Below, piece after piece: positions 14,059 through 43,018 of a stretch of DNA of 64,000 nt. Each line of letters opens with the position of its first letter. Within the stretch, counting starts at the first letter, position 1. The DNA is from a bacterium (lineage in GTDB: Bacteria > Patescibacteriota > Minisyncoccia > Phycocordibacterales > UBA918): contig JAYTMA010000167.1 of NCBI GenBank assembly GCA_043728975.1, forward strand, positions 4,939 through 68,938, read 5' to 3'. The notes under the pieces were generated by a model. It searched no databases. It saw only the letters and a program-made list of their open reading frames with translations, and had not been told where the DNA came from. Position numbers and translations under genes: made by a program.

Positions 14059-14681
14059 TGAACTACTGGGACAAATACTCGCGACTTCACGATAAGCCTG
14101 TAACAGAAGCTAATCCAATTCCTTGTAACAATAGCTGGATTTACACTGCCTATTACGTTCGCATTTACGGCCCAGTTGTGCCAATTATGCAAGAGGTATG
14201 CTTTGATCTTTGCAGTATGAACGGAAAGCTTATTAGAAGCCCAGGAAAAGCACTGCCGCCGATTTCGCACGACGAGATTCTTGGTATGGTAGCTTTAGGC
14301 TTACTCGAACCAGAGCACTTGAAAGGCTGGTCATTTAGTCCTTATGCAATTCCTAAATTCTCCCCCCTCAAGCTTGCTCAGCAGCTTTGGGATTTGCGCC
14401 CCAGCTTGAATAGGCATCGTAACTATTTCTGGGAGAATTCACTTGATCAAATTTATAGGTTTGCATTTAGCGTTCGATTAGTTGATCGCCACTTCCTTCT
14501 AAAAACCTGGGGGAAGTTCCAGTGGTTTAATCCTGCGCACTTGTTTTATGCATCAATTGCTAAGCTAGATTCAAAACTGGGACAAGCTTCTGGAATACGC
14601 TTTTTGAAGTATGGCGGAAAGAAGAATGAAGTGACTATGAGAACGGAATTCCCTGAAGGACATCCACTAGCTGCAAAGTGA
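14058..14681 (+). CDS. hypothetical protein (207 aa)
   Basis: ATGA-type overlap with the upstream gene. Confidence 0.5.
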   Translation: MNYWDKYSRLHDKPVTEANPIPCNNSWIYTAYYVRIYGPVVPIMQEVCFDLCSMNGKLIRSPGKALPPISHDEILGMVALGLLEPEHLKGWSFSPYAIPKFSPLKLAQQLWDLRPSLNRHRNYFWENSLDQIYRFAFSVRLVDRHFLLKTWGKFQWFNPAHLFYASIAKLDSKLGQASGIRFLKYGGKKNEVTMRTEFPEGHPLAAK

Positions 14682-14869
14682 GAGAGTATAAGGTAGATGA
14701 TAGAGTTATTGCCGCCGAAACAAAATGCTTTATCGTTTCATTGCCGGACTTCGAAGGAGATTGTTATGTTCTTTGCCCTGAAAACTCTACCGCACTAGGC
14801 GCTTTTATGGAAGATGAGTTCATATTAGATGAGATTTATCATTCCCCCCTTGGCCAAGCACTTAAGTAA
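14678..14869 (+). CDS. SPLYQALK-tail family small protein (63 aa)
   Basis: C-terminal HSPLGQALK. Coupled to the upstream gene. Confidence 0.55.
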   Translation: MREYKVDDRVIAAETKCFIVSLPDFEGDCYVLCPENSTALGAFMEDEFILDEIYHSPLGQALK

Positions 14870-14892
14870 AAAAACACGACAGGAGGTTGTGA

Positions 14893-15432
14893 ATGACTCT
14901 CGAAGAAATTTGGATGAGCGGTGATTTCACTGCCGAAACTGCGAACAAGCTTCGCCAAGATATTCTCAAACATGCAGAAGTTGGGGCAGATGTCCCAGTT
15001 GTTATCTACATTAACTCTTACGGAGGCTCTGTAGATGCTTTAAACAAGATCCTAGACACTCTCGATAGCTTGCCTAACGAAATCATTACAGTGTGCGCTG
15101 GAACTGCTATGAGCGCTGGAGCAGTGCTTTTGAGCTATGGCGATCAGCGATACATTGGCGCAAATTCAAGAGTGATGATTCATCAAGTAAGCTCAGGAAC
15201 TTTCGGCACAATTGCAGATATGGAAACGAGCGTGAAAGAAACTAAGAAGCTCAATAATCAGCTTTTGAAAGTGCTTGCGAAAAGATGCAAGAAAACTCCA
15301 ACGCAGATGAAGGCAATCTTCGATAAGAACGTGGACAAGTTCTTAAATCCTTCAGAAGCTAAGAAATTTGGGCTTGTCGATAAGATTGGAACGCCAAGAT
15401 TGAAACAGGTGATTAGCTATGAGCTTGAATAA
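14893..15432 (+). CDS. ClpP-like serine protease (179 aa)
   Basis: YINSYGGSVDA...GTAMSAG (Ser)...MIHQ (His) matches the ClpP/S14 core. Located in the early region, not beside capsid genes. Confidence 0.75.
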   Translation: MTLEEIWMSGDFTAETANKLRQDILKHAEVGADVPVVIYINSYGGSVDALNKILDTLDSLPNEIITVCAGTAMSAGAVLLSYGDQRYIGANSRVMIHQVSSGTFGTIADMETSVKETKKLNNQLLKVLAKRCKKTPTQMKAIFDKNVDKFLNPSEAKKFGLVDKIGTPRLKQVISYELE

Positions 15433-15445
15433 AACAGGAGAAAGT

Positions 15446-15676
15446 ATGCTTATTAGATTAATAGACCTCGAAGATGGAAGTTGTGTTCTAGTCAATACCT
15501 CAATCATCACAAGTGTTTATGATTGCATAAGTAGATCCAAAATATCTTTCACAGATTCAAGTTTTATCATCGTTCAAGAAACTGTGAATCAGATTTACCG
15601 GCTATCGAAAGGCTACTCTAAAGATCCTGAGCCATTGGAGAGAGTTCCCCCGAGTCAACAGAGATGTCGTAAATGA
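15446..15676 (+). CDS. hypothetical protein (76 aa)
   Basis: Start set at ATG 15446 after acaggagaaagt RBS. Confidence 0.45.
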   Translation: MLIRLIDLEDGSCVLVNTSIITSVYDCISRSKISFTDSSFIIVQETVNQIYRLSKGYSKDPEPLERVPPSQQRCRK

Positions 15677-15903
15677 GCAAGTTCAAAGTTGGCGATGTGG
15701 TTGTTGTTATATGCGATAAAAACACGCCTTCAATGAGAAAAGTGGGACAAAAATTCACAGTTGGATCAGTGCTTAACTACTTCAGAGGTCAAGACGATGT
15801 TATTTTTCCCGACAACCTCGAGCCTGACGGTCACGGCTTTCAAGAGTCTCAAGTTATTTTAGAAGCTATCTACGAGTCTCCGCTTTATAAGGCACTTCGA
15901 TAA
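15673..15903 (+). CDS. SPLYQALK-tail family small protein (76 aa)
   Basis: N-terminal MSKFKVGDVVVV. C-terminal ESPLYKALR. Confidence 0.65.
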   Translation: MSKFKVGDVVVVICDKNTPSMRKVGQKFTVGSVLNYFRGQDDVIFPDNLEPDGHGFQESQVILEAIYESPLYKALR

Positions 15904-15923
15904 ACATTTAGCAAACGAACAGG

Positions 15924-16961
15924 ATGTTCAACATGCGAATCAGCCACTCCGGCAAGAACACTCATAAAGAGTGCTCGGAAAAGTACCGCCTTCATTACAT
16001 TGAGAAGCTTAGGGGGCAGAAAATATTCTCCGCCCTTTTCTTCGGCTCAGCACTTGATGAAGCGTTTTCTAGACTACTACTTGATAAAAAGCCAATAAAA
16101 ACGCCAGAAGAATTGCTCCAGTTAGATGAAACTGCCGAGGGTATTTTCTATAAGCACATGAGCAACGTTCGGAGAGATGATGGAACGATTGTCGAAGCAT
16201 CAAAAAGCCCTTTTGCTGATTATTATGCCTCTGATTTTACCCCAGAGCTTCTTTCTGATCAAGCTGTTGCGCTCCTACAAGAATATGCGCCAGATGTTGC
16301 AGTTGGCGAATCTGTTGAAGAGGCGAAAGAAAGTGTTCTCGGTTTTATGGAGAGTTGCAAAGCTCATACTAAGGCGAAAAAGAAGCTCTCTCAGGACGAT
16401 GTTCCAGTTTTTAACTACATTACATGGCTTACGTTGGTCGAGAAAGGCTACCTCATGGTTGAAGCTTATCGTAATCAAATCATGCCCCAGATTTTCGAAG
16501 TGTATAGCATTCAAGAGAAAATTTCAGTCAAGAATGAAGCTGGTGATGAAATTACGGGGCTAATCGACTTCACAGCGAGTTTTGTTCAAGAACCTGGGAC
16601 AATGTACGTTTGCGACAACAAGACTTCATCAAAGCCTTACAAGCTCTCAGACACTGCTGAATCGGCCCAGTTAGCTACTTACTGCGAGTATAAGCAAACG
16701 AACAAAGCAGCTTATGTAGTTATCGAGAAGAAGGTTTATGCAAAAGCTCCTGTAATTCATACGCAAATTCTGAAGGACGTTATACCCGAAGCAATATTTG
16801 CTCAGACCTTCACAGAATTTGAAGAAGTAGTGTATAGTATTAATACTGGTGCATTTGAAAAGAACTTCAAGTCTTGCTTCAGTTTCGGGCGAATGTGCCA
16901 ATTTTACGCAATTTGCAAACACAACAACTATGAAGGCTTGATCAAAAAGAAAGAGGACTAA
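15924..16961 (+). CDS. PD-(D/E)xK exonuclease, Cas4/RecB-like with Cys cluster (345 aa)
   Basis: Motifs GLIDF, YVCDNKTS (D-x-K) and QLATYCEY. N-terminal Cys plus C-terminal C-x5-C-x6-C (CFSFGRMCQFYAICKH). Confidence 0.7.
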   Translation: MFNMRISHSGKNTHKECSEKYRLHYIEKLRGQKIFSALFFGSALDEAFSRLLLDKKPIKTPEELLQLDETAEGIFYKHMSNVRRDDGTIVEASKSPFADYYASDFTPELLSDQAVALLQEYAPDVAVGESVEEAKESVLGFMESCKAHTKAKKKLSQDDVPVFNYITWLTLVEKGYLMVEAYRNQIMPQIFEVYSIQEKISVKNEAGDEITGLIDFTASFVQEPGTMYVCDNKTSSKPYKLSDTAESAQLATYCEYKQTNKAAYVVIEKKVYAKAPVIHTQILKDVIPEAIFAQTFTEFEEVVYSINTGAFEKNFKSCFSFGRMCQFYAICKHNNYEGLIKKKED

Positions 16962-18988: not shown

Positions 18989-19207
18989 ATGAAGAATGGG
19001 AAAGGCTCTCAAATGAGTGATGTTCCAGTTTTGCTTCAGCGAGGAGATATTGAGTACATGCTTATATCTCAAATCGCTAAACACCACAACATTAAAGTGC
19101 TCGACTTCTGCAGTATCTGGATTGAGGGCGGCAAGAAGATGACTTATGAGAACTACTTGAACTGGTACTTGCAAACTTACACACCACTGGGGAAAGCGCT
19201 TAAATGA
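18989..19207 (+). CDS. SPLYQALK-tail family variant (72 aa, ..YTPLGKALK)
   Basis: C-terminal tail variant. ATGA overlap with the next family member. Confidence 0.5.
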   Translation: MKNGKGSQMSDVPVLLQRGDIEYMLISQIAKHHNIKVLDFCSIWIEGGKKMTYENYLNWYLQTYTPLGKALK

Positions 19208-19422
19208 AAACATTCAAAGTAGGCGATAGGGTAGTTGTAACTGGCCACATAAGACAAGATGACCATAGCTTCTATTTAAAAAATGGGACAGTTGATAACA
19301 TTACTGATTTACGCTTATACCCCGTTGAAGTTAATTTTGGCAATAGAACTTTTATATTCATGGAACATGAGCTGGAACTAGAAAGCATCTACTATTCGCC
19401 CCTTTACCAAGCACTTATATAA
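19204..19422 (+). CDS. SPLYQALK-tail family small protein (72 aa)
   Basis: MKTFKVGDRVVV ... YSPLYQALI. Confidence 0.65.
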   Translation: MKTFKVGDRVVVTGHIRQDDHSFYLKNGTVDNITDLRLYPVEVNFGNRTFIFMEHELELESIYYSPLYQALI

Positions 19423-19425: not shown

Positions 19426-20442
19426 ATGGGACAAAAAATGAAATTTGATAAAACTCGCAAAGAGCAAACGGGTATTGCCTCGATTGCCGACTTAAAACGA
19501 AGCGGAAAAGTAACTGGAGCAATGAACCCAGCGCTTTTCGTAAATGGCCCAGATGAGTTTGATTGTTTAATCAACAAATGGAGCAGACAAGAACTCGGCG
19601 GCTTGATTGGAGACTCTGGCGTAGGTAAATCCGAGGTCGTGCTCCAGTTTTTTAAATCCATACTCATGAACAATCCCAAAAGCTCAGCAGTTTACGTTTC
19701 TCTTGAAATGACTGACGAGAAGATTGCACAGAGATGGTACAAAATCACTGAAGGACATCCAGAACTTGCCGAGCGCTTGTTCATCCTCTCTCGTTACGAC
19801 TCAAACGGAAAGTCTCGAGAAGTGAGTGTTCAGTGGATTAAGCGCGAACTTATGCGATATCGAGAAGTTGTTGGAGACATTGTTACATTTGCAATTGACC
19901 ACGTTCACTGTCTTGGCGAAAACGACGCTTCTACATTGAACTCGCTCTTCATTGTCTTGAAAGAGATGTGCGTGGAGCTTAATGCTTATGGAATAGCTAT
20001 GGCCCAGGTTAACAAGAGCAGCGGACAAAAGGGCGAAGTGCCTTTAGATGCTGATTCAGTTCTCGGTTGTAGCCAAATGAAATATATTTGCTCTGACATC
20101 ATTCAAATACACCGGCCCATTTTTAGATTAGAGGAAGATGCGAAAATGTCCGTTCTTTCCTGGGGCTATGTGAAAACTCGTGAAGCTCATAAAGACGACA
20201 AGGTGAAGAAGGGGCAAAACAAGCTTCTCTTCTACGATAACGAAACAAGAACGTTCAGAAAAATGAACAGCGCTGAATTGAGCGTGTTCAAGATGTATTA
20301 TAATTCTCTCCTAGAAATGAAATCGGCAGAAGAGAAGCAGAAAGCTTTTACTTACGACATTACGAAAGAGATTCAAACCAAAGACGGGAAGTTTGTAACA
20401 ATCACTGAAAAGTTCTGCGGGAGTGTAGGTGATGACCTTTAA
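19426..20442 (+). CDS. RecA-fold replicative helicase-like ATPase (DnaB C-terminal domain-like, 338 aa)
   Basis: Walker A GLIGDSGVGKSEV. Walker B-like FAIDHVHCL. Confidence 0.65.
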   Translation: MGQKMKFDKTRKEQTGIASIADLKRSGKVTGAMNPALFVNGPDEFDCLINKWSRQELGGLIGDSGVGKSEVVLQFFKSILMNNPKSSAVYVSLEMTDEKIAQRWYKITEGHPELAERLFILSRYDSNGKSREVSVQWIKRELMRYREVVGDIVTFAIDHVHCLGENDASTLNSLFIVLKEMCVELNAYGIAMAQVNKSSGQKGEVPLDADSVLGCSQMKYICSDIIQIHRPIFRLEEDAKMSVLSWGYVKTREAHKDDKVKKGQNKLLFYDNETRTFRKMNSAELSVFKMYYNSLLEMKSAEEKQKAFTYDITKEIQTKDGKFVTITEKFCGSVGDDL

Positions 20443-20617
20443 AATTGGAGATAGGGTTGTCAATCTACGCTATTGGAGTAATCCAATTTTTGTAGTCACA
20501 GGCTTCGATGGAGTTCAGTACTCTGTTACAAATGGAGTTGAGACTAGTTGGAGTCTTCCTAAAGAGCTTGTTCATGAGGTTATTTACAATTCCCCCCTTT
20601 ACAAGGCTCTCAAATGA
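20429..20617 (+). CDS. SPLYQALK-tail family small protein (62 aa)
   Basis: MMTFKIGDRVV ... NSPLYKALK. Confidence 0.65.
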   Translation: MMTFKIGDRVVNLRYWSNPIFVVTGFDGVQYSVTNGVETSWSLPKELVHEVIYNSPLYKALK

Positions 20618-20832
20618 GCCGCTTTAAAGTTGGCGATAAGGTCGTTCCAATCTGGAACAGCCATTACAACGACAAGCCTCAAACAGTCGTAGAAGTTTTT
20701 CCCAAGGGCGTGTGCTTAGAATCTGCATACGCTCAAACAGGATTGTATCCGCCAAGCTTAGCGGTGTTCTACGACGAGGAAATTGAATACTGGGACATTT
20801 GGAAATCCCCGCTATGGGAGGCGCTTAAATAG
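20614..20832 (+). CDS. SPLYQALK-tail family small protein (72 aa)
   Basis: MSRFKVGDKVV ... KSPLWEALK. ATGA overlap. Confidence 0.65.
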   Translation: MSRFKVGDKVVPIWNSHYNDKPQTVVEVFPKGVCLESAYAQTGLYPPSLAVFYDEEIEYWDIWKSPLWEALK

Positions 20833-20901: not shown

Positions 20902-21609
20902 TTGCTTGTGATCTTAGTAGAAGAGATTGAAGTACTTATAAATCCAAGAAGGAAAAAGCATTTTGAAAGCCTTGGGTATGAAATTCCTAAGTACATAAAT
21001 AGAAACGGATTACCTACTGTGCTTACTGGAACTGCAATCACGGTTCAAGTTAAAGATCTATCACCTTATAGCGATGTAAAAGTACCTGTATGTTGTGAAG
21101 TTTGTAACCAAGCTCGTAAAATCCCTTATAAGCATTTAGCAAAACCTAATTCAAATAAATCTGGGTGGTTAGTAGATGGTACAACATTATGCAAAAAATG
21201 TAGCGCTATAAAATCTGGCATACATAGAAAAGGTATCAAGGTTCCTAAATTATCAGGAAAGCTCAATCCATTTTATAAACACGGCTCGACAGGGTACTCA
21301 AATTACTTAAGCCGAGCAAGTAAGCGTGGAATACCCTTTGATTTGACCGTCGAGCAGTTTAAGGAATTGACTAGTATGAAATGCCATTATTGCAATGGGA
21401 CTCATCCATCAATATCCGACAAGGAAATGCTATGTGGGATTGATAAGAAAGATCCTGTCAAAGGATATGTATACAGTAACTGTCTACCTTGCTGCATTTT
21501 ATGTAATCAAGCGAAGAATAGCATGAGTTACAAAGAATTCAAGTCATGGCTCATTCGAATTAGCGAAAACTTTCTTAAACCAACTTCCAAGGTCTTAAAT
21601 GAGACTTAG
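20902..21609 (+). CDS. HNH endonuclease with Cys-rich zinc fingers (235 aa)
   Basis: CHYCNGTHP...CLPCCILCNQAKN HNH core. Multiple CxxC pairs. Confidence 0.75.
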   Translation: MLVILVEEIEVLINPRRKKHFESLGYEIPKYINRNGLPTVLTGTAITVQVKDLSPYSDVKVPVCCEVCNQARKIPYKHLAKPNSNKSGWLVDGTTLCKKCSAIKSGIHRKGIKVPKLSGKLNPFYKHGSTGYSNYLSRASKRGIPFDLTVEQFKELTSMKCHYCNGTHPSISDKEMLCGIDKKDPVKGYVYSNCLPCCILCNQAKNSMSYKEFKSWLIRISENFLKPTSKVLNET

Positions 21610-22447
21610 TATTTGGCCAAAGGCCAATCCCCGCCCAAAGAACAAGGACGAGAAGATCATCGTCGGCTATCAAGTAAGCGGCGATAAAAACCTCCCTACA
21701 ACTGTCGAGTTCAACGACGACGAAGAGCTGCTCCATTTCGTTACAAACAACGCTTGGAGCCCTTTCACATTCTCCGGTAAGCGAGATGCTGCGAACTTCA
21801 TAAGCTGTGACTTGCTCGTTTATGACATCGACGATGGCCTAACCATTGACGAGGCAAAAGTGCTTGTTAAAAAACATAACTTAGCTTGTCTCTGTTTACC
21901 TTCCCCCTCTCACTCTGAAGAGCTTCACAAGTTCCGCATTATCTTGCCCTTGGCTTATCCGATCACTGTCCCAGATGTTTATATTGCCACTTGGCTTAGC
22001 GGGGCAGAAATATTCGGAGTAGTGGATGAGCAATGTAAAGACTTAGCTCGCTTCTACAATTCGAGTACAGACGAAGATGGCTTTTGGACTGAAGGAAAGC
22101 TGTTTGAGCCGAGGCGACCAGAAGAAAAGAAAATGGAACAAAACCAGGGGCCTAAGCAAGTTATGCTTCCGCTATCTGGGGACATTGCAGAAACTGTTCT
22201 AGCAATTTACGGCGAAAAGCGCTCGGTTGTTCCAGAAGCTGTTGATTTCTTTATTCGAAATGCACACTCAGGTTTGCAAGGCGAATGGACCAACGCTTTG
22301 AACAGGTTTTGCTTCAGTTTAGCATTGTCAGGAGTTGAAGATGATGCTATATTAATAGTATGCAAACAGCTTGCTCCTCAAGAGCTTGATAAGCGAGATT
22401 TGTATCAGATTAAACGAGCTATCCAGGATGGAAAAAATGCAGTTTAA
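21599..22447 (+). CDS. hypothetical replication-associated protein (282 aa)
   Basis: Long ORF between the HNH and polymerase genes. LLVYDIDDGLTIDEAK is reminiscent of primase-associated domains. No firm motif. Confidence 0.45.
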   Translation: MRLSIWPKANPRPKNKDEKIIVGYQVSGDKNLPTTVEFNDDEELLHFVTNNAWSPFTFSGKRDAANFISCDLLVYDIDDGLTIDEAKVLVKKHNLACLCLPSPSHSEELHKFRIILPLAYPITVPDVYIATWLSGAEIFGVVDEQCKDLARFYNSSTDEDGFWTEGKLFEPRRPEEKKMEQNQGPKQVMLPLSGDIAETVLAIYGEKRSVVPEAVDFFIRNAHSGLQGEWTNALNRFCFSLALSGVEDDAILIVCKQLAPQELDKRDLYQIKRAIQDGKNAV

Positions 22448-22649
22448 CGTTGGTGATATTGTAGTTACAACTTCCAAAGACCCTTTTGCCGGGGTTCCTA
22501 TTGGAACTCAAGCTGTTATAACTGGAATTCGTGAAAAGACTTGGAATAATCTCCACGTTTATGAACTAGACATAAAGCAAGTCTGCACATCAGACAGTAT
22601 TGCCCCTCATGGACTTACTCTTTCCCCCCTCTGGCAAGCTCTCAAATAA
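22437..22649 (+). CDS. SPLYQALK-tail family small protein (70 aa)
   Basis: MQFNVGDIVV ... LSPLWQALK. Start chosen at ATG 22437 rather than the track's TTG 22371. Confidence 0.6.
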   Translation: MQFNVGDIVVTTSKDPFAGVPIGTQAVITGIREKTWNNLHVYELDIKQVCTSDSIAPHGLTLSPLWQALK

Positions 22650-22676
22650 TAATTCCCTCACGAACAGGATGTTCCA

Positions 22677-25860: not shown

Positions 25861-26080
25861 AATCAAAAACACCCTCCTCGCCCTAACCGGCATCTCCGCT
25901 CTCATTTACTTCTACCGCCTCTTCACTCTACCAAGCTCTGAAATGTTCAAGCACGAGTTCCCCGAGAAAGCTGAAAAAGCTGCTGCTGTAAAAGAAGTGG
26001 CTCATCTTAAAGAAGAGATTAAAGAAGTAGCGGCAAAAGAATACAGCGATGAAGAGATCGAGAAAAAGTTCAACCACTAA
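25853..26080 (+). CDS. small membrane-anchored protein (75 aa)
   Basis: N-terminal TM segment LLALTGISALIYFYRLF. Confidence 0.45.
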   Translation: MTKIKNTLLALTGISALIYFYRLFTLPSSEMFKHEFPEKAEKAAAVKEVAHLKEEIKEVAAKEYSDEEIEKKFNH

Positions 26081-26295
26081 TGAGCAAGTTTAAAGTAGGC
26101 GATAGAGTAGTTGATAGCGGCTTTAGAGCTACTGGCGTAGTAGTCATATCCCCGTTATACGAAACAGATCACATTGTTGCCGTTAGATTCGATAATCACG
26201 ATTACGATGATGAAGATGGCTGGCACTCAATGTTCATTGCTAACTTAGAGCCGGACCTTACTTATGGATCACCACTTAGAGAGGCTCTTAAATGA
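26080..26295 (+). CDS. SPLYQALK-tail family small protein (71 aa)
   Basis: MSKFKVGDRVV ... GSPLREALK. Confidence 0.65.
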   Translation: MSKFKVGDRVVDSGFRATGVVVISPLYETDHIVAVRFDNHDYDDEDGWHSMFIANLEPDLTYGSPLREALK

Positions 26296-26522
26296 GCTTT
26301 TACGAGAACATGAAAGTGTTCGTGATCAACAGAAAGTACGACCACTCTCTGAAGTTGTGGAATGAAGAAAAAACTGGGCCATTTCCTGTGCTCATGGTTT
26401 CTGGCTATGGCACTCGAGATGATTACGGTCATGTGTTTCTCTTACAAGACGGCGTGAAAATGCTTTCGGTAGACGAGAGTAGGATTGAAATAGTTACGCC
26501 GCTAACTGAAGCGCTTAAATGA
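26292..26522 (+). CDS. family-tail small protein (76 aa, ..TPLTEALK)
   Basis: ATGA-coupled. Tail variant. Confidence 0.5.
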   Translation: MSFYENMKVFVINRKYDHSLKLWNEEKTGPFPVLMVSGYGTRDDYGHVFLLQDGVKMLSVDESRIEIVTPLTEALK

Positions 26523-26600: not shown

Positions 26601-26804
26601 ATGAGTAAGCTTAAGCGTGGAGATGTTGTAGTGCTTGTTCATATTGTCCCACATTGGACATACGAAATCAGTGTAGTAGACTTCACGCGATACTTTGCAG
26701 ATTGTGACCGCTATTACCTCAAGCAGCTTGAGATGTGGGTGGATGCTTCTGAAGTAGAACTGGAGCAAGTCTTTCATTCCCCTCTTTATCAAGCTCTCAA
26801 GTAA
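26601..26804 (+). CDS. SPLYQALK-tail family small protein (67 aa)
   Basis: MSKLKRGDVVV ... HSPLYQALK. Confidence 0.65.
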   Translation: MSKLKRGDVVVLVHIVPHWTYEISVVDFTRYFADCDRYYLKQLEMWVDASEVELEQVFHSPLYQALK

Positions 26805-28819: not shown

Positions 28820-28863
28820 TTAAATGCTCTAAAGGCGTAGACATAATCATCGACGAGGAGGAC

Positions 28864-31143: not shown

Positions 31144-31368
31144 ATGAACAACTTTAAACCTGGCGACATACTCGTTCGCATCAACTACGACTGGAACGAT
31201 CACAAAGTTGGAGGCATTTTCGAGCTTGAGTCTCTGGTCGAAGCTCCAAGCTCAACTCGCAAGTTACCCCCAACGCTCATATTCAAAAACGATACAACAG
31301 GCTACGACTCTAGACACTACGAGCTTCATCCAATCTCCGGCTCTCCGCTTTTCGAAGCACTGAAGTAA
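31144..31368 (+). CDS. SPLYQALK-tail family small protein (74 aa)
   Basis: MNNFKPGDILV ... GSPLFEALK. Confidence 0.6.
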   Translation: MNNFKPGDILVRINYDWNDHKVGGIFELESLVEAPSSTRKLPPTLIFKNDTTGYDSRHYELHPISGSPLFEALK

Positions 31369-33268: not shown

Positions 33269-33430
33269 GTGGATATTGTAAATATTTCTGTAGAACTGGG
33301 CCAATTAAAAGCTCGCATCGAGCTTATGAAAGCAGCTCTTGAACAATTGCTCCAGCATGAAGATCCCAAAGTGCGTAAGATTGCAAAAGCAGCTTTGTTT
33401 CAAGCGGGATTTAGCGAAGACGTTACTTAA
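33269..33430 (+). CDS. small helical protein (53 aa, GTG start), possible recombination directionality factor
   Basis: Translated by hand: VDIVNISVELGQLKARIELMKAALEQLLQHEDPKVRKIAKAALFQAGFSEDVT. Lies directly after the integrase. Confidence 0.2.
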   Translation: MDIVNISVELGQLKARIELMKAALEQLLQHEDPKVRKIAKAALFQAGFSEDVT

Positions 33431-33504
33431 GAGCCTTGTAGAGGGGGGAGTTGTAAACTGTCCAGCAGCCATTGGCTTTGTGAACGTGAATGTATTGGCC
33501 CAGT

Positions 33505-34455
33505 TCATTTCAGCTTCCCGAAAATAAATATACGCTCACGATTCTGGGCAAGTCCGAAGTGCTTTGAGTTTACAAGTTCGAAGTCTACTTCATATCCAAG
33601 CTGGGACAGGCCTTTAAGAATCTCAACTATGGTTTTACCTCCATCATGATTCAACAGGCCCTTTACGTTCTCAGCGAGGAAGTACTTCGGCTTATGCTTC
33701 TGGAGAATATCGAAGCAGTGGTAAATCATTTGACCCCGGCCCTTCTCGTCTTCGAACCCCTGTCTAAGTCCAGCAATACTAAAAGACTGGCACGGGAATC
33801 CGAAAGTCAGGAGATCGAAATCTGGGACGTCAGTACGTTCAATGAACTTAGTTACGTCATTAAAGTTGGGAGTGTTCGGATGGTTGAAGCGAATTACATC
33901 TGAAGCGTACTTATCAAATTCGCATGTCCCAGTTAACTTGAAACGCTCTGGAAGATTTAGCTCAGTTCCGAGTATTCCCGAGAACAAAGACTGAACTCTA
34001 ACCTGTTCATCGCCAGGAATTAGTGACGTAAGTATTGTCGCGGCTACAGGAGAGCTGACTCCGTTACCACATTGTTTGTATCTTTGGGTGTTAGACATGT
34101 TGTAGATTGTCCCATCTTCTTTTCTTCCATACGCTGTATGATTGTCTGGGTAGCCTTGAAGTCTTTCACATTCTACTGGAGTGAGCTTACGAATTCTAAT
34201 CGTACCAGCTTCATCTAGAACCATGCGCTGACCATTACCTGGGGCGGGATTACCTACATTAGTGGTGAGAGTACAGGCAATTTCATCAGTCTTAACATTG
34301 TCATTATAAGCATCGTACACCGCTACGAAATTTTGAGAACTCATGTTTGCTCCTCCATCACCTGTACTTATTGTATTTGCTTCTCCATCCACTTTTCCCC
34401 TAACATCAATATGATTCTCACGAGTGCTTTTAGAATATGCTACTGTAGTTTTCAA
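33505..34455 (-). CDS. DNA (cytosine-5) methyltransferase, circularly permuted catalytic core (316 aa: TRD/motifs IX-X, then I, IV, VI, VIII)
   Basis: ECERLQGYPD, GNGVSSPVA (motif X), LFSGILG (I), FPCQSFS (IV), ENVKGL (VI), QNRERIFIFG (VIII). The protein ends 3 aa after motif VIII. TTG start. The frame stays open upstream to 34506. Confidence 0.8.
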   Translation of the reverse strand: MKTTVAYSKSTRENHIDVRGKVDGEANTISTGDGGANMSSQNFVAVYDAYNDNVKTDEIACTLTTNVGNPAPGNGQRMVLDEAGTIRIRKLTPVECERLQGYPDNHTAYGRKEDGTIYNMSNTQRYKQCGNGVSSPVAATILTSLIPGDEQVRVQSLFSGILGTELNLPERFKLTGTCEFDKYASDVIRFNHPNTPNFNDVTKFIERTDVPDFDLLTFGFPCQSFSIAGLRQGFEDEKGRGQMIYHCFDILQKHKPKYFLAENVKGLLNHDGGKTIVEILKGLSQLGYEVDFELVNSKHFGLAQNRERIFIFGKLK

Positions 34456-37034: not shown

Positions 37035-37399
37035 AAACCCTCTTCGCCCTTCTTCTCATCTATCCCATTTATGCTCAAGCCTGTCCGAAGAACGTACAGA
37101 CGATCAAAACTGGAGCAACTTCCATTTGCGATGGCTGGCTTGTTTCAGAGCCTAAAATGCAAGAGCTTGCAAAACAAGCTGACGAGCTAGAGCTTTCAAA
37201 GAAGCTTATCCTGGCGCAAGAGCATTTACGAACTCTCGATGTTAAAGAGATCGAGTTCTTTAAGAAGCGCTCTGAAGCGGGGGAGAAAGCATTGGCCCAG
37301 TCTAATGCTCAGAAGGTGCTGATTGGAATCGGTGCATTCGCTCTCGGTGTTGTTGTAACAGGTATTGCGGCCAAAGCTGCGATTGAGGCTACTCGATGA
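37031..37399 (+). CDS. secreted/membrane-anchored coiled-coil protein (122 aa)
   Basis: Signal peptide MKTLFALLLIYPIYAQA. C-terminal TM IGIGAFALGVVVTGIAA. Confidence 0.5.
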   Translation: MKTLFALLLIYPIYAQACPKNVQTIKTGATSICDGWLVSEPKMQELAKQADELELSKKLILAQEHLRTLDVKEIEFFKKRSEAGEKALAQSNAQKVLIGIGAFALGVVVTGIAAKAAIEATR

Positions 37400-37578
37400 G
37401 ATTCAGTCTCGGAGATGAGCTTATTGTAACTGAGACTGACTTGAGCTTTTGCGAAAAGGGTCAAGTGTTTATAGTAGAGCGCATGGATAAGTATCATTAC
37501 GAAGACAGAGATGGAACTATCATCGCATCAGACTATGAAGTTGAGCTTCTTTCAGGAAAGCAGTTTATTCTTAGTTGA
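37396..37578 (+). CDS. small protein with family-like N-terminus but no SPLYQALK tail (60 aa)
   Basis: MRFSLGDELIV. ATGA-coupled. Confidence 0.4.
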   Translation: MRFSLGDELIVTETDLSFCEKGQVFIVERMDKYHYEDRDGTIIASDYEVELLSGKQFILS

Positions 37579-38102: not shown

Positions 38103-39155
38103 TCAAATTTCATCATTAAAAAACTTTCTTACCAAAATATGATCCATTAGCAACTGATTACAATCCTTGTCGTGCATCTCTGTTGTCATGCTCAACAGCT
38201 CTGCATGTTGCACTATTGTCTCGGCCAATCGCATTTTTTTAAATTTATCAACCTCGGCATCAGTAAGCCCCTTACACGTAGAAATAATTTTAAGAGTCAG
38301 AAAGTCCTCCTGTAGACCTTTTAGACCTCCAAAAATTATATCGTTATTATCAGGATCAAATCCGTAGCCTAAAATGATGAGCCTCTCTGCATTCTGCAAA
38401 ATTGATCTCAGGACTTTATACTCATCCTTATGCTTCCTATCGATAAAATTAATTCCCTCAGAAGCTAAAATTAAATCATCAAATCCAGGAACTGTATCAT
38501 CTCGAAGAGCATTTAAAACGGCATTTACCCGTTCTAGATTTCCGTACACATGAAAGATAGGAAGATCATTTCTGACAATATGTTTTGCCCTGCTCGCTAA
38601 GTCTCGGTCAATTTCTTGATGTGAATAGTAATTAGTAAAACAATCTTCGAGATGAAGGTCGTAATTAAAGGTTATAAAGCAATCCGGTTCTTCTAAGTAT
38701 CCTGAATAATCAAGCCCAATTCGTTTATTTAAATAGTTTAAGATCCATGGCTTACAATCCACGGAAGGTTCAAAAATTCCGTCGACAGTATTCCCTGCCG
38801 TTCTGGCGCAATTAATTAAAACATAACTGACCAAGAATTTTGCGATATTTAGATAGCGTGGATTTTTTGCGACAAAAGAGTCGATTGACTGGGCACCTGA
38901 TTTCTTTAGCTTCTCAACGAACGATTTTAATTCAATTGAAAACTCACCTAGATGATGTTGCAAATCATCGTCTTTGCATTCATCAATATTTTTCCGGAGC
39001 TGATTGAAGATGTTATCAGTACCATTTTCTAAATTGATCAGATTAATTTTAAGCTGACTACCCGTCGGATAGCCATACGCAAGACTTGAGCCAGCTCCGA
39101 GGAGATAAACATCTTTAAACTTATGATTCTTCCATTTTTCAAGTTTCTCAATCAT
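38103..39155 (-). CDS. SIR2_2-family (Thoeris ThsA / DSR-like) putative NAD+-hydrolase protein (350 aa)
   Basis: N-terminal VYLLGAGSSLAYGYPTGSQL (GAGxS...G.P). CFITFNYDLHLED (TTNYD motif). LPIFHVYGNL (catalytic His). LIILGYGFDPDNNDI (GYSf-D). Lone minus-strand gene with aggaac RBS. Confidence 0.7.
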   Translation of the reverse strand: MIEKLEKWKNHKFKDVYLLGAGSSLAYGYPTGSQLKINLINLENGTDNIFNQLRKNIDECKDDDLQHHLGEFSIELKSFVEKLKKSGAQSIDSFVAKNPRYLNIAKFLVSYVLINCARTAGNTVDGIFEPSVDCKPWILNYLNKRIGLDYSGYLEEPDCFITFNYDLHLEDCFTNYYSHQEIDRDLASRAKHIVRNDLPIFHVYGNLERVNAVLNALRDDTVPGFDDLILASEGINFIDRKHKDEYKVLRSILQNAERLIILGYGFDPDNNDIIFGGLKGLQEDFLTLKIISTCKGLTDAEVDKFKKMRLAETIVQHAELLSMTTEMHDKDCNQLLMDHILVRKFFNDEI

Positions 39156-39249
39156 TATATAGTTCCTAAGTACGTATTACTTTCAATTCCATCTCTCTAC
39201 TGTTGTTAGTGGTAAAGAGAACTTTCTGGCCCCTTTATCAGGCGCTTCT

Positions 39250-39477
39250 ATGAAAGTTGGAGATCGCGTGATTGCATTGAGAGCTTTGTGGAGTGGAGAC
39301 ATCGGCCCTAAGGGCATTGTTCCATTTTCTAGAGGTATAATTGTTGAGCGTCTAAAGTTAGGTGTTTTTAAAGATGTTCAATTCGACGATGGAAAAAAAG
39401 CTAATGGCTGTACACCTGGAGCGCACATTGAACTAGAAGCTGTTTACGATTCCCCACTTTACCAAGCCTTACTCTAG
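39250..39477 (+). CDS. SPLYQALK-tail family small protein (75 aa)
   Basis: MKVGDRVIAL ... DSPLYQALL. Confidence 0.6.
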   Translation: MKVGDRVIALRALWSGDIGPKGIVPFSRGIIVERLKLGVFKDVQFDDGKKANGCTPGAHIELEAVYDSPLYQALL

Positions 39478-40389: not shown

Positions 40390-40392
40390 AAC

Positions 40393-40719: not shown

Positions 40720-40721
40720 CT

Positions 40722-41159: not shown

Positions 41160-41268
41160 TCGCAATGATTTTAATCGCTATCTTCACCGCAGCAGCTTTT
41201 ACAGATGCTCCAGTTTGTACAAGAGACTCTGCTCAGACAATTCAGAAAGAAGGCATCGGTGGCCGCTA

Positions 41269-41709
41269 ATGAAACCCGTTAAACTGAACTTCAAGAAGCT
41301 TTCCCCCGAAGCTGTCACTCCTAAATACTCTAAGAGCGGCGATTGTGGAGCAGACTTAACAGCAACTTCAATGCTCGAAACAGGAATGTACATTGAGTAT
41401 GGAACTTCATTAGCTGTTGAAATTCCCCCTGGCTACGTTGGCCTGATTTATCCTCGCTCCAGTTGTTCAAATTATGCCCTAATTCTTAGTAATTGCGTAG
41501 GTGTAGTTGACCCTGGATACACAGGAGAAATACGTTTTCGCTTTAAGAAATCCAATCCATACCCATTTGCAGATCATCGCGTATATGCAATTGGCGACCG
41601 CATAGGACAGCTTATCGTACAGCAAGTTCCGAGAATGCTCTTTAATGAAGTTGAAGAACTGGAGCAATCGGAAAGAGGCTCGCTTGGTTTCGGTAGTTCT
41701 GGCGTATGA
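41269..41709 (+). CDS. dut: dUTP diphosphatase (trimeric dUTPase, 146 aa)
   Basis: Motifs KSGDCGADL (1), GVVDPGYTGE (3), RGSLGFGSSG (5). Start set at ATG 41269. Confidence 0.8.
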   Translation: MKPVKLNFKKLSPEAVTPKYSKSGDCGADLTATSMLETGMYIEYGTSLAVEIPPGYVGLIYPRSSCSNYALILSNCVGVVDPGYTGEIRFRFKKSNPYPFADHRVYAIGDRIGQLIVQQVPRMLFNEVEELEQSERGSLGFGSSGV

Positions 41710-41773
41710 CTTGTCCCTTCTGTGGAGACAAGCCTTGTTATCACCCTCACTGCCCTTACACAAAGGTAAAATA

Positions 41774-41839
41774 ATGGAACACGCTCTTGTCCTTCTCCTT
41801 GCCTTTGCCCTTCTCGTCTTCTTCAAACTCAGGAACTAA
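41774..41839 (+). CDS. hydrophobic 21-aa peptide (MEHALVLLLAFALLVFFKLRN)
   Basis: caaaggtaaaataATG RBS. Single TM-like helix. Directly upstream of the membrane-anchored nuclease. Confidence 0.3.
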   Translation: MEHALVLLLAFALLVFFKLRN

Positions 41840-41842
41840 ATC

Positions 41843-42337
41843 ATGCTCCAGTTTTTTGTCATCCTTATTCTTGCCGCCCTATACTTCGCTTATCAAGCCA
41901 TGCAAAAGTACTGCACTAAGCACGATGAAGTGCCTCTTAAACTGGAGCAAGCTAACCAGGAAATCGGGCAACTCAAAGGAACACTTAAGCAAGAGCTTAC
42001 ATATTTAGAGAACGCTCGGAGAGATCTTTCAGAGCTTAAAGAGCAGTTCGAGAAGCTTCGTTTCAATAAGATCTCGGGGGATGTAAAACTGGGCCAGAAG
42101 TTCGAAGTCATCGCCCCTTTCCTCGATTCTTTCCCTTATCCTGACGACGAAATCAAAGCAATGTATCAGCCAATAGACTTGATCATCTTTAGAGAAGACG
42201 AAGTAGTCTTTCTTGAAATAAAGACAGGAGTGTCCCAGTTGTCGGACAAGCAGAGAAGAATTAAAAAGAACATTAAGGAAGGTCGAGTTCGCTTTGAAGA
42301 AATTAGAATGACTGAGAAAGGTGTGACGATCAAATGA
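41843..42337 (+). CDS. membrane-anchored PD-(D/E)xK nuclease-like protein (NERD/VRR-NUC-like, 164 aa)
   Basis: N-terminal TM FFVILILAALYFAY, then coiled coil. C-terminal PIDLIIFREDEVVFLEIKTG (D...E-x-K). Confidence 0.4.
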   Translation: MLQFFVILILAALYFAYQAMQKYCTKHDEVPLKLEQANQEIGQLKGTLKQELTYLENARRDLSELKEQFEKLRFNKISGDVKLGQKFEVIAPFLDSFPYPDDEIKAMYQPIDLIIFREDEVVFLEIKTGVSQLSDKQRRIKKNIKEGRVRFEEIRMTEKGVTIK

Positions 42338-42606
42338 GCACTAAAACACTTAACTCAATACTTCAGAAAGCTGCTGCATATTCCGTCACGAAGGACATTA
42401 CGTTTGATGTAATTATGGAAGAGTTGTATGGCAGCTATCAAATCAGAGCTTATCGCAGAAGCGACGATACGATTATGCGCACTAGAATTTCGCACTATCA
42501 ACTAATGGATAAAGAGAAGCTCATTGAAAAAGTCTGCAAGTTCGTTGCTGATGTTGATGAGAAGTTCGAATTATTCGATTCCCCCCTCATGAAGGCGCTA
42601 AGATGA
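42334..42606 (+). CDS. family-tail small protein (90 aa, ..DSPLMKALR)
   Basis: ATGA-coupled tandem array of three. Confidence 0.55.
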   Translation: MSTKTLNSILQKAAAYSVTKDITFDVIMEELYGSYQIRAYRRSDDTIMRTRISHYQLMDKEKLIEKVCKFVADVDEKFELFDSPLMKALR

Positions 42607-42815
42607 ATGTTCCAGTTTCCAAAGAAGAGCTTGCGACTCTTACTTACATAGGCTCTTTCAATGATGTTCACGGCACGAACCTAACCTGGACCAAGTACTT
42701 CGAAGAGATTGGCATGACTTGCGAACAAGCTAGAGATGATAGAGTTCTCGAATACGAATCGTACCTACGTTGGGTTGCACTCAGAAATTCCCCCCTCATG
42801 AAGGCCCTTAAATGA
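42603..42815 (+). CDS. family-tail small protein (70 aa, ..NSPLMKALK)
   Basis: ATGA-coupled. Confidence 0.55.
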   Translation: MNVPVSKEELATLTYIGSFNDVHGTNLTWTKYFEEIGMTCEQARDDRVLEYESYLRWVALRNSPLMKALK

Positions 42816-43018
42816 AACGCTATGATAAGGTTGTCGTTATAAAATCACGAGACGAATGGGATTACCCTGTTGGAACAGAGCTTATTATTAAAAGCTTCTA
42901 TACTTCAGCCAACGGTTACAAATGCTTTATGAGTTTAGGCGAAACCATGGGCTGTGTTTTGGATTACGTTATACCAAAAGAACTATACGATTCCCCTCTA
43001 TACCAGGCACTTAAATAA
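42812..43018 (+). CDS. SPLYQALK-tail family small protein (68 aa)
   Basis: MKRYDKVVVI ... DSPLYQALK. Confidence 0.6.
   Translation: MKRYDKVVVIKSRDEWDYPVGTELIIKSFYTSANGYKCFMSLGETMGCVLDYVIPKELYDSPLYQALK

What the first reader, a model, noticed from the sequence alone, without database searches (positions are those of the whole stretch)
14678..43018. About 15-member family of tiny proteins with a near-invariant C-terminal SPL[YWFM][QKE]AL[KR] tail
Fifteen ORFs of 60-90 aa are scattered through the early region: starts at 14678, 15673, 18989, 19204, 20429, 20614, 22437, 26080, 26292, 26601, 31144, 39250, 42334, 42603 and 42812. Degenerate relatives start at 11383 and 37396. Nearly all end ...SPLYQALK, with variants SPLWQALK, SPLMKALK, SPLFEALK and PLGQALK. 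Ten of them start with M(S)KFKVGDRVV, resembling an SH3/KOW/Tudor-like beta motif. Their middle regions diverge strongly. The tail is conserved at the protein level, since Ala and Leu codons vary synonymously. Many sit in ATGA-coupled tandem arrays, at 19204/19426, 20429/20614, 26080/26292 and 42334/42603/42812. An invariant C-terminal octapeptide on otherwise divergent paralogs points to a shared recognition tag. It could be a degron for the phage's own ClpP-like protease at 14893. It could also be a docking peptide for one host target, such as a clamp, RNAP or chaperone.
Basis: seen in the sequence. Interest (0 to 1): 0.85.

Follow-up and report, generated by a model that had tools for sequence, protein, structure and literature searches.

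The report
Shared tail on phage mini-proteins
An uncultured ~91-kb phage and its relatives encode dozens of tiny early proteins, mostly SH3-like barrels but also unrelated folds, that all end in the same short peptide ([ST]-P-L-x-x-A-L-x), an undescribed protein-level tag whose binding partner is still unknown.

Summary
The window has 18 exact PLxxALx-stop sites, against a mean of 1.3 in shuffles. They comprise the 15 listed ORFs, a new ORF at 6055-6345, and two orphan tail remnants at 39227-39253(+) and 33423-33452(-).

Conservation is at the peptide level. All synonymous codons are used at the invariant Pro, Leu and Ala positions.

Eleven window ORFs share an SH3/Tudor/KOW-like barrel. At least five others share only the tail, and one of these models as all-helical.

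Related ~84-93 kb metagenomic phages carry 15-23 tail ORFs per 20 kb. One is a conserved ~215-aa Gad2-like nucleotidyltransferase. Homologous SH3 repeats in large proteins lack the tail, so it is an add-on and not part of the fold.

No Pfam, PHROG, NCBIfam, PDB or literature match exists, and no member occurs in 185,579 reference genomes.

The most likely function is a common docking helix that links diverse small effectors to one hub.

The last residue varies, a whole lineage adds an acidic extension after the motif, and the ClpP gene at 14893 is missing from the syntenic slot in three relatives. A protease link is not excluded.

The parts
6055..6345 (+). 96-aa ORF with a non-SH3 body, tail ...YYSPLMEALG.
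   Evidence: Matches the family profile only through the tail.
11383..11583 (+). 66-aa 'NWDKP'-type ORF with a degenerate tail SYLGQALL.
   Evidence: Orthologue-like ORFs L019 6364-6570 and 17075-17308 end SSPLMEALE and SSPLGKALA.
14678..14869 (+). SH3-type member, tail SPLGQALK.
   Evidence: Profile E = 2e-6 without the tail.
15673..15903 (+). SH3-type member, tail SPLYKALR.
   Evidence: Identical protein P0003 occurs on 8 contigs.
18989..19207 (+). Helical 'Y..Y..W' type member, tail TPLGKALK. Gene callers start it at 19013. Its stop ATGA-overlaps the start of 19204.
19204..19422 (+). SH3-type member, tail SPLYQALI.
20429..20617 (+). SH3-type member, tail SPLYKALK. ATGA-coupled to 20614.
20614..20832 (+). 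SH3-type member, tail SPLWEALK.
22437..22649 (+). SH3-type member, tail SPLWQALK.
   Evidence: Corresponds to P0002.
26080..26295 (+). SH3-type member, tail SPLREALK. ATGA-coupled to 26292.
26292..26522 (+). 76-aa member with an unclassified body, tail TPLTEALK.
   Evidence: No SH3-profile match without the tail.
26601..26804 (+). SH3-type member, tail SPLYQALK. This is the protein modelled with AF2.
31144..31368 (+). SH3-type member, tail SPLFEALK.
33423..33452 (-). Orphan tail NSPLYKALK* without an ORF, immediately downstream of the minus-strand C5-methyltransferase. Most likely a remnant of a decayed member.
   Evidence: In L016 the homologous methyltransferase is followed by intact tail genes.
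37396..37578 (+). Weak SH3-type relative lacking the tail.
   Evidence: E = 3e-4 among 18 sequences.
39227..39253 (+). Orphan tail WPLYQALL* without an ORF. It ATGA-overlaps the start of 39250 and abuts the minus-strand SIR2_2 gene 38103-39155. Most likely a remnant of a member displaced by an insertion.
39250..39477 (+). SH3-type member, tail SPLYQALL.
42334..42606 (+). 90-aa member with a non-SH3 body, tail SPLMKALR. ATGA-coupled to 42603.
42603..42815 (+). 70-aa helical 'Y..Y..W' type member, tail SPLMKALK. Modelled as all-alpha. ATGA-coupled to 42812.
42812..43018 (+). SH3-type member, tail SPLYQALK.
14893..15432 (+). Not shown to be linked to the tail.
   Evidence: Pfam CLP_protease E = 2e-36. 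Present in c44 but absent from the syntenic slot in L019, L020 and L042.
8265..10877 (+). Context only: MoxR-type AAA+ ATPase (8265-9461) and a vWA protein with a putative metallopeptidase domain (9570-10877). The pair is conserved directly upstream of tail-gene clusters in relatives. It is an untested candidate hub.
   Evidence: Pfam AAA_5, DUF2201_N and DUF2201. Orthologues in c44 and L019; the vWA/metallopeptidase gene also in L042.
43754..44578 (+). Context only: second, divergent ClpP-family ORF (ClpP-2) with a hydrophobic N-terminus. Orthologue in c44 (E = 1.6e-94); similar-sized ClpP-family genes in L041 and L043.
   Evidence: Pfam CLP_protease E = 1e-11.

Best explanation
The tail is a separable, protein-level C-terminal module of about 15 residues: h-E-h-E-x-[IV]-Y-N-[ST]-P-L-Y-[KQ]-A-L-x. 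Its last part forms a short amphipathic helix whose invariant face is Leu, Ala, Leu.

It has been kept on a greatly expanded repertoire of small, soluble, mildly acidic early or accessory proteins in one clade of uncultured ~84-93 kb phages. Most bodies are single SH3/Tudor/KOW-like barrels with hypervariable loops. Others are unrelated: helical mini-proteins, a zinc-ribbon protein, a membrane protein and a Gad2-like nucleotidyltransferase.

The most likely role (inferred, not shown) is a common docking peptide. The variable body would engage different targets, while the invariant tail would plug every family member into one shared partner. That partner could be a host hub or a conserved phage machine, such as the MoxR AAA+ / vWA-metallopeptidase pair or a ClpP-family protease.

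Shown: the motif is real, is selected as a peptide, is modular, is strongly retained, and is specific to this phage clade. Inferred: that it binds a partner, and which partner.
For: - Excess over chance: 18 sites in the window against a mean of 1.3 in shuffles.
- Peptide-level selection: free synonymous variation at the invariant residues, with codon use like the gene bodies.
- Same tail on unrelated bodies: 11 SH3-type and at least 5 other window ORFs. Across five sources there are 52 SH3-type ORFs and 22 others in about 19 sequence clusters. AF2 gives a beta-domain for 26601 and an all-alpha model for 42603, each ending in a short terminal helix.
- The barrel does not need the tail. Of the 150 best hits among 4,258 profile matches, the multi-repeat SH3-like proteins match profile positions ~3-60 and lack the tail, whereas 28 of 30 new single-domain hits carry it.
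- Strong retention: 89 of 93 SH3-type ORFs in tail-phage loci have the tail, and two of the four exceptions are one-residue variants.
- Density: 15-23 tail ORFs per 14-20 kb in relatives.
- A ~215-235-aa Gad2-like protein keeps the tail or a close variant of it in four phages spanning both polymerase lineages.
- Not a host mimic and not in prophages: no true member in 185,579 reference genomes.
Against: - No partner was identified, and no binding was or could be tested here.
- In the SH3 model the tail is the best-predicted segment (pLDDT ~90). That is compatible with the helix packing in cis on the barrel, i.e. a structural cap.
- Tail subtypes track body types: TPLGKAL on helical bodies, SPLY[KQ]AL on SH3 bodies. 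This suggests the third motif position contacts the body.
- The related loci were found through the family itself, so the densities are ascertainment-biased.
- ORF lists are mechanical, and a few counted ORFs may be spurious.
- The second AF2 model rests on 7 sequences, and only one of its five models is confident.
Confidence: 0.45

Rival explanations
1. Turnover tag. The tail marks early proteins for timed degradation by a ClpP-family protease encoded by the phage, working with a host unfoldase, or by a host AAA+ protease.
For: Two ClpP-family genes lie in the window. ClpP-1 sits among tail genes in the window and in c44. ClpP-family genes were also seen in L041 and L043. It is established knowledge, from lambda O, N and CII, that early phage regulators are commonly short-lived and that C-terminal peptides can act as degrons.
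Against: The last residue is variable, and 17% of members carry 2-12 extra residues. An entire lineage has acidic extensions after every tail, and an internal tail is tolerated in the tandem fusion P0122. This is unlike ssrA-type tags, which are read at the free C-terminus. ClpP-1 is missing from the syntenic slot in L019, L020 and L042 despite equal tail density. ClpP-2 has a hydrophobic, signal-like N-terminus, so it may not be cytoplasmic.
Confidence: 0.15
2. Intramolecular cap. The module is a self-contained strand- or helix-turn-helix clasp that stabilises very small proteins or protects their C-termini. It spread to new bodies because new genes arise by insertion into, or fusion with, the 3' ends of existing members.
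For: The tail has high pLDDT in the SH3 model. Conserved hydrophobic positions at -8, -6, -3 and -2 precede the motif on all body types. Tail subtypes correlate with body type. Orphan tails next to inserted genes, and the L043 polymerase carrying a 19-aa tail add-on, show that 3'-end capture does happen.
Against: Homologous SH3 repeats fold without the tail. Invariance of four residues across about 19 unrelated body clusters and across divergent lineages is far more than generic capping would need. Retention of 89 in 93 implies specific selection.
Confidence: 0.2
3. Self-association. The SH3-like barrels bind the proline-containing tail of other members in trans, assembling the tagged proteins, including non-SH3 'clients', into chains or a condensate.
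For: SH3-like and Tudor domains are peptide-binding modules (established knowledge). The family combines a barrel with a Pro-containing peptide, and non-SH3 proteins carry only the peptide.
Against: The motif is predicted to be helical, not a PxxP polyproline-II ligand. There is no direct evidence. The barrels' loops are hypervariable, which is unexpected for a site that binds an invariant ligand.
Confidence: 0.1
4. Capsid-targeting or ejection signal. The tail would load many small proteins into the virion for co-injection, as with encapsulin cargo peptides, the HK97 protease tail or the T4 capsid-targeting sequence.
For: C-terminal targeting peptides exist in HK97-fold systems (established knowledge). 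One tail-bearing family (Gad2-like) has an anti-defence relative that would benefit from early delivery.
Against: The tail genes lie in the replication / early module on the + strand, opposite to the block of large minus-strand ORFs at 45.8-64 kb. The motif has no resemblance to known cargo peptides. No tail occurs on any large minus-strand ORF.
Confidence: 0.05
5. Nucleotide- or translation-level signal (RBS, coupling element, terminator or recombination site) that merely happens to be read as a peptide.
For: Six of the 17 + strand tails overlap the next start codon as ATGA.
Against: Third codon positions vary freely with body-like codon usage, including both Ser codon classes. Eleven of 17 tails are followed by gaps of 3-119 nt. 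There are no Rfam hits.
Confidence: 0.02

Closest known systems
SH3-like / Tudor / KOW small beta-barrels (Pfam SH3_12, SH3_15 'Mind bomb SH3 repeat', Tudor_5; ribosomal uL24; Spt5 KOW)
   Same: The N-terminal 'KFKVGDRVV' strand and the small beta-domain model resemble these folds. Profile hits reach multi-repeat proteins annotated SH3_15 and SH3_12. The nearest folds are PHF19/PHF1 Tudor, uL24 and PWWP.
   Different: No window member reaches any Pfam curated threshold. Fold matches are non-significant (E > 0.1). None of these families has the [ST]PLxxAL tail.
Poxvirus ankyrin/PRANC (F-box-like) multigene families (analogy from general knowledge)
   Same: A viral multigene family in which variable target-binding bodies share a short conserved C-terminal motif that docks all members onto one host machine.
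   Different: No sequence or fold relationship. Bacteria lack the SCF ubiquitin system. Docking is only inferred here.
C-terminal AAA+ protease signals: the ssrA tag (…LAA-COOH) and the SspB 'XB' ClpX-docking tail (…LRVVK-COOH) (general knowledge)
   Same: A short hydrophobic/basic peptide at or near the C-terminus shared by different proteins. ClpP-family genes are present in the phage.
   Different: The consensus differs. The last residue is variable, and acidic extensions of 2-12 residues are common and lineage-wide. ClpP-1 is not conserved with the tails.
Replisome-hub tails: bacterial clamp-binding motif QL[SD]LF; T4/RB69 gp43, gp33 and gp55 C-terminal clamp-binding tails; T7 gp2.5/gp4 acidic tails (general knowledge)
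   Same: Several different proteins carry one C-terminal peptide that binds one hub. One relative's family-B polymerase ends in a tail-like TPLGDALDE.
   Different: The sequence does not fit known clamp motifs. Polymerases of L016, L042 and all family-A relatives lack the tail. The carriers are mostly tiny accessory proteins, not replisome enzymes.
Gad2 (anti-Gabija phage protein with a predicted nucleotidyltransferase fold; bioRxiv 10.1101/2023.05.01.538930)
   Same: A conserved ~215-235-aa tail-bearing protein in relatives has a precomputed Pfam Gad2 hit and a weak PolyA_pol head-domain hit.
   Different: It is about half the length of the 400-aa Gad2. My own hmmscan did not return Gad2. The gene is absent from this window. 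Published Gad2 is not reported to carry such a tail.

Membership tests
Pfam SH3-like families (SH3_12, SH3_15, Tudor_5, KOW-type) | Score at or above the family's curated gathering threshold | tested here: not met
   The best scores were Tudor_5 at 18.5 bits (cut-off 31) and SH3_12 at 15.1 bits (cut-off 26.2), both for ORF 39250. Most members had no hit.
Pfam SH3-like families (SH3_12, SH3_15, Tudor_5, KOW-type) | Small five-stranded beta-barrel fold | tested here: inconclusive
   The AF2 model of 26601 (pLDDT 78) has five short strands plus a terminal helix. Foldseek top hits are Tudor, uL24 and PWWP with TM 0.5-0.6 but E > 0.1.
Pfam SH3-like families (SH3_12, SH3_15, Tudor_5, KOW-type) | Sequence homology to recognised SH3-like repeats | tested here: met
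   The family profile hits multi-repeat proteins at E down to 3e-54, and these themselves score SH3_15 at E = 7e-71 or SH3_12 at E = 1e-13.
ssrA-like C-terminal degron (ClpXP/ClpAP) | Defined non-polar residues at the free C-terminus, with the motif abutting the carboxylate | tested here: not met
   The last residue is K, L, S, R or E. 45 of 261 members have 2-12 extra residues, and all 33 tails in L042 and L043 are extended.
ssrA-like C-terminal degron (ClpXP/ClpAP) | Tail-dependent proteolysis | not testable with these tools
   This needs half-life measurements of tagged and untagged proteins.
SspB-type XB docking tail | C-terminal hydrophobic-basic peptide that binds the ClpX N-domain | tested here: inconclusive
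   There is only a loose resemblance (…AL[KR] versus …VVK), judged from the logo. Binding is not testable here.
Sliding-clamp binding motif | Consensus QL[SD]LF or QLxLxL, or T4-type hydrophobic C-terminus, on replisome proteins | tested here: not met
   The logo lacks the Gln and the spacing. Only one polymerase (L043) carries a tail-like end, while those of L016, L042, the window, c44, L019, L039 and L040 do not.
Capsid/encapsulin cargo-targeting peptide | Carried by proteins encoded with the shell or late module | tested here: not met
   The tail genes sit among replication genes on the + strand. None of the large minus-strand ORFs at 45.8-64 kb has the tail.
Gad2 anti-defence family (applies only to the ~215-aa tail-bearing protein of relatives) | Significant match to Pfam PF26128 / nucleotidyltransferase fold | tested here: inconclusive
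   Precomputed Pfam Gad2 hits appear. My own hmmscan gave only PolyA_pol head domain at E = 1.6e-4, just below its cut-off. The gene is not present in the window.

The most novel reading that the evidence does not exclude
These phages use a virus-specific universal 'address tag'. Tens of otherwise unrelated early effectors per genome, including likely anti-defence proteins, are wired through one invariant C-terminal helix to a single hub. The hub could be the conserved phage MoxR AAA+ / vWA-metallopeptidase pair, a ClpP-family protease or a host machine. This would make the SH3-like paralogues a diversifying adaptor library that recruits many host targets to one remodelling or degradation engine. 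It would be a bacterial-virus counterpart of the poxvirus PRANC/F-box adaptor families.
Probability: 0.25. Interest if true: 0.9.

Novelty: new variant of a known kind. Interest (0 to 1): 0.72.

Why it matters
If the tail is a docking or targeting tag, it gives a single experimental handle on up to half of the uncharacterised early genes of a whole phage clade. One peptide could pull down the hub. The variable SH3-like bodies could then be read as a natural library of binders against host targets. That would make part of the 'dark matter' of phage early genes directly testable, and might reveal a new host-takeover or anti-defence strategy. Even if the tail proves to be only a stabilising cap, an 8-15-residue portable module that works on beta, alpha and enzyme bodies would interest mini-protein engineers.

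Tried and rejected
- A DNA repeat or regulatory element was rejected. Third codon positions vary freely and codon usage matches the gene bodies, and there are no Rfam or tRNA features.
- Known families: Pfam, PHROGs and NCBIfam give no significant hit. PDB sequence searches with the family profile and with a tail-only profile give only generic SH3 barrels or chance hits. Foldseek against PDB and BFVD gives nothing significant.
- Literature: motif strings and concept searches returned nothing relevant.
- Cultured phages: megablast and tblastn of a consensus member found nothing. The nearest cultured phage by polymerase (Flavobacterium phage immuto, 48% identity) has no tails in its first 50 kb.
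- Cellular genomes: two degenerate-pattern scans of 185,579 reference genomes gave 0 and then 11 hits. All 11 were chance, since none has a tail-ending ORF. No host could be assigned.
- The metagenome and IMG/VR pattern scans returned few true contigs, essentially one 44-kb contig plus a 17-kb one.
- The idea that the tail is a replisome or clamp tail, prompted by the L043 polymerase, was rejected as a general rule. Other polymerases lack the tail, and L043's is a 19-aa add-on.
- The methyltransferase-adjacent orphan tail is not DNA-homologous to the tail genes downstream of the L016 methyltransferase. Homology stops at the methyltransferase stop codon.

Full report
**Observation.**
A six-frame scan for PLxxALx followed by a stop finds 18 sites: 17 on the + strand and one on the - strand. 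Two hundred mononucleotide shuffles, scored with a slightly looser pattern, gave a mean of 1.3 and a maximum of 4.

- A 96-aa ORF at 6055-6345 ending YYSPLMEALG.
- An orphan tail at 39227-39253(+), WPLYQALL*. It lies in no ORF of 20 aa or more, ATGA-overlaps the start of the 39250 member, and abuts a minus-strand SIR2_2 gene.
- An orphan tail at 33423-33452(-), NSPLYKALK*. It also lies in no ORF, just downstream of the minus-strand C5 methyltransferase.

Minor corrections follow. Only P, L, A, L are invariant, and exact SPLYQALK occurs twice. The ATGA overlap is at 18989/19204, whereas 19204/19426 has a 3-nt gap.

**Peptide or nucleotide signal?**
In the window, Pro uses four codons, Ala four and Leu five. 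Across 134 tail genes from the window and relatives, all synonymous codons are used at the invariant residues. Their proportions are close to those in the gene bodies (p = 0.05-0.1; Ala p = 0.003), and Ser uses both TCN and AGY. Eleven of the 17 + strand tails are followed by gaps of 3-119 nt, not by overlapping starts. There are no Rfam families or tRNAs in the window. Selection therefore acts on the peptide.

**What carries the tail.**
A profile of 117 family members still recognises 11 window ORFs after their last 10 residues are removed (E = 1e-6 to 1e-14 among 18 sequences). These are 14678, 15673, 19204, 20429, 20614, 22437, 26080, 26601, 31144, 39250 and 42812. ORF 37396 is a weak tail-less relative. 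ORFs 6055, 11383, 18989, 26292, 42334 and 42603 match only through the tail.

AF2 with the deep alignment models ORF 26601 as a small beta-domain followed by a short C-terminal helix. Mean pLDDT is 78, and the tail is the best-predicted part at about 90. The nearest PDB folds are PHF19/PHF1 Tudor, uL24 KOW, PWWP and Spt5 KOW, with TM 0.5-0.6, but none is significant. BFVD gives only uncharacterised small phage proteins.

ORF 42603 models as six helices, with the tail again forming a short terminal helix after a break at N-S-P. The best model has pLDDT 78, but the alignment has only 7 sequences and the other four models are poor. It has no PDB fold match. So the same tail sits on at least two fold classes.

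**Wider distribution.**
The word-indexed search found 119 homologues. Their consensus is MSKFKVGDxVV…LELExxYNSPLYKALx. The exhaustive profile search found 4,258 cluster representatives at E ≤ 1e-3. Its top hits are long proteins with up to 25 tandem SH3-like repeats, with Pfam SH3_15 or SH3_12 hits. These match only profile positions ~3-60 and have no tail. In contrast, 28 of 30 new single-domain hits carry it. The exception among long proteins is P0122, a head-to-tail fusion of two SH3+tail units. The barrel therefore does not need the tail, which is an add-on defining a subfamily.

**Related genomes.**
The window belongs to a ~91-kb metagenomic contig. Syntenic relatives share a gene order of MoxR AAA+, vWA/metallopeptidase, SLT, PD-(D/E)XK nuclease, ERF, DnaB-like helicase, polymerase and RNR. 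They use either a family-A or a family-B polymerase.

All of them are packed with tail-bearing ORFs:
- L019 and L020: 15-16 per 20 kb.
- L016: 18 per 20 kb.
- L040: 23 per 20 kb.
- L039: about 20 per 14 kb.
- L033: 9 per 6.9 kb.
- The 44-kb contig c44: 29 in 36 kb.
- L042 and L043: 15 and 18 per 20 kb.

In five sources, 52 tail ORFs are SH3-type and 22 have other bodies, falling into about 19 sequence clusters. These include a CxxC…CxxC protein and a protein with an N-terminal transmembrane segment. They also include a ~215-235-aa nucleotidyltransferase-like protein that keeps the tail, or a close variant of it, in c44, L019, L042 and L043. That protein has a precomputed Pfam Gad2 hit and a PolyA_pol head-domain hit at E = 1.6e-4. 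Gad2 is a published anti-Gabija protein with a predicted nucleotidyltransferase fold (10.1101/2023.05.01.538930).

Among all ORFs in these loci that match the tail-less SH3 profile, 89 have the tail and 4 do not. Two of those four are one-residue variants.

**Motif anatomy.**
From 261 distinct proteins the logo is: -8 L/I/F, -7 E, -6 L/F/H, -5 E, -3 I/V, -2 Y, -1 N, then S(92%)/T, P, L, Y(72%), K/Q/E, A, L(98%)/M, x. Exactly one residue follows AL in 83% of proteins, 2-12 mostly acidic residues follow in 17%, and never zero.

In the low-GC family-B-polymerase lineage (L042, L043), every tail is followed by an acidic extension such as …ALKEEE. Members are soluble, mildly acidic (median pI 5.4) and lack signal peptides.

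**Absence elsewhere.**
- No Pfam, PHROG or NCBIfam family matches.
- No PDB chain resembles the tail.
- No paper contains the motif or describes such a family.
- No deposited phage matches.
- The nearest cultured phage by polymerase, Flavobacterium phage immuto at 48% identity, has no tails in its first 50 kb.
- Two pattern scans of 185,579 reference genomes gave only chance hits. The tail is therefore neither a copy of a host C-terminus nor found in sequenced prophages.

**Mechanism.**
The data show a portable, strongly selected peptide module on heterologous bodies. The simplest reading is a common protein-protein docking helix, with Leu/Ala/Leu forming one face. Variable bodies, especially the SH3-like barrels with hypervariable loops, would provide diverse specificities. 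I rate this at about 0.45. It is an inference, because no partner was identified.

- The terminal residue is variable and acidic extensions are lineage-wide.
- An internal tail is tolerated in the P0122 fusion.
- ClpP-1 (14893) is absent from the syntenic slot in L019, L020 and L042 although it is present in c44.

A second ClpP-family gene (43754) has an orthologue in c44, and ClpP-family genes were also seen in L041 and L043. A protease link therefore stays open, at about 0.15.

The conserved MoxR AAA+ / vWA-metallopeptidase pair lies directly upstream of tail-gene clusters in the family-A-polymerase relatives, and the vWA/metallopeptidase gene also does so in the family-B-polymerase L042. 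It is an equally plausible, untested phage-encoded hub.

A purely structural cap is the main rival, at about 0.2. It fits the high pLDDT of the tail and the correlation between tail subtype and body type. It does not explain the invariance across unrelated bodies, nor tail-less SH3 repeats that fold without it.

**Gene flux.**
The two orphan tails in the window sit next to genes on the opposite strand or of foreign appearance, namely SIR2_2 and the C5 methyltransferase. The methyltransferase is 74% identical in DNA to the L016 methyltransferase, and that homology ends exactly at its stop codon. L043's family-B polymerase has the normal …DYSKPKN ending plus 19 extra residues containing TPLGDALDE, whereas the L016 and L042 polymerases lack this. 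Both observations indicate birth-and-death turnover and 3'-end capture. This is one way the tail could reach new bodies.

**Limits.**
- ORF calls are mechanical.
- The related loci were found through the family itself, so densities are biased.
- Both AF2 models have moderate confidence.
- The host is unknown.

**Verdict.**
This is a real, highly non-random and apparently undescribed protein-level C-terminal module. It is shared by an expanded, heterogeneous set of small early proteins in one clade of uncultured phages. I classify it as a new variant of a known kind (shared C-terminal peptide motifs on modular proteins), with function unresolved. Interest is 0.72.

Noticed in passing
window 39227-39253 (+) and 33423-33452 (-): Two orphan tail remnants lie outside any ORF of 20 aa or more. 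One abuts the minus-strand SIR2_2 gene (38103-39155). The other follows the minus-strand C5 methyltransferase (33505-34455). They suggest that members were destroyed by insertion or replacement, with only the last ~9 codons surviving.
   Followed up: partly
L043 6817-9306: The family-B DNA polymerase of one relative ends …FLDYSKPKNVSAGLMLGTPLGDALDE. That is the normal polymerase C-terminus (as in L016 and L042) plus 19 residues containing a tail-like motif. It is probably a fusion with a tail remnant, though it could hint at a replisome link.
   Followed up: partly
window 8265-9461 and 9570-10877: A MoxR-type AAA+ ATPase (AAA_5) sits next to a protein with a putative metallopeptidase domain (HExxH, DUF2201_N) and a vWA-like domain (DUF2201). 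The pair is highly conserved in c44 and L019, and the vWA/metallopeptidase gene is also present in L042. It always lies just upstream of tail-gene clusters.
   Followed up: partly
window 43754-44578: A second, divergent ClpP-family ORF (Pfam E = 1e-11) has a hydrophobic, signal-like N-terminus. It has an orthologue in c44 (E = 1.6e-94), and similar-sized ClpP-family genes lie near the minus-strand large-ORF block in L041 and at the end of L043.
   Followed up: partly
window 38103-39155 (-): A 350-aa SIR2_2-domain gene lies on the opposite strand inside the + strand early region. It looks like an inserted defence- or counter-defence-type cassette.
   Followed up: no
window 12057-12884: A secreted ice-binding-like protein (Pfam Ice_binding, E = 1e-64) is encoded by the phage. 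This is a possible hint of a cold-environment host.
   Followed up: no
window 10874-11398, 25288-25860, 28789-29292, 31426-31950 (also 20902-21609 and 43341-43757, unconfirmed): Several free-standing nuclease genes are interspersed among the replication genes: NUMOD4/HNH_3, Endonuclease VII, AP2+HNH_3 and HNH_3. The NUMOD4/HNH ORF occupies the position where relatives encode the tail-bearing Gad2-like protein.
   Followed up: partly
window 15915-15929 and 22660-22674: The 15-mer ACGAACAGGATGTTC occurs exactly twice, each time just downstream of a tail gene and at or before the next gene start. With up to 3 mismatches there are 5 matches, against 1.5 expected. It may be a shared translation-initiation or regulatory context.
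   Followed up: partly
L041 1367-1744: A relative encodes a 125-aa protein with an RF-1 (peptide release factor / peptidyl-tRNA hydrolase) domain, next to dGTP-diphosphohydrolase-like and dUTPase genes.
   Followed up: no
P0122 (163 aa, metagenomic): This protein is a head-to-tail fusion of two complete SH3+tail units: …NSPLYNALKQPQ…MSKFKLGDRVV…NSPLYKALK. It shows that an internal copy of the tail is tolerated.
   Followed up: no
window 45789-63959 (-): All ten large minus-strand ORFs tested (up to 1,205 aa), presumably the structural module, have no Pfam hit at E ≤ 1e-3. This points to a very divergent virion module.
   Followed up: no
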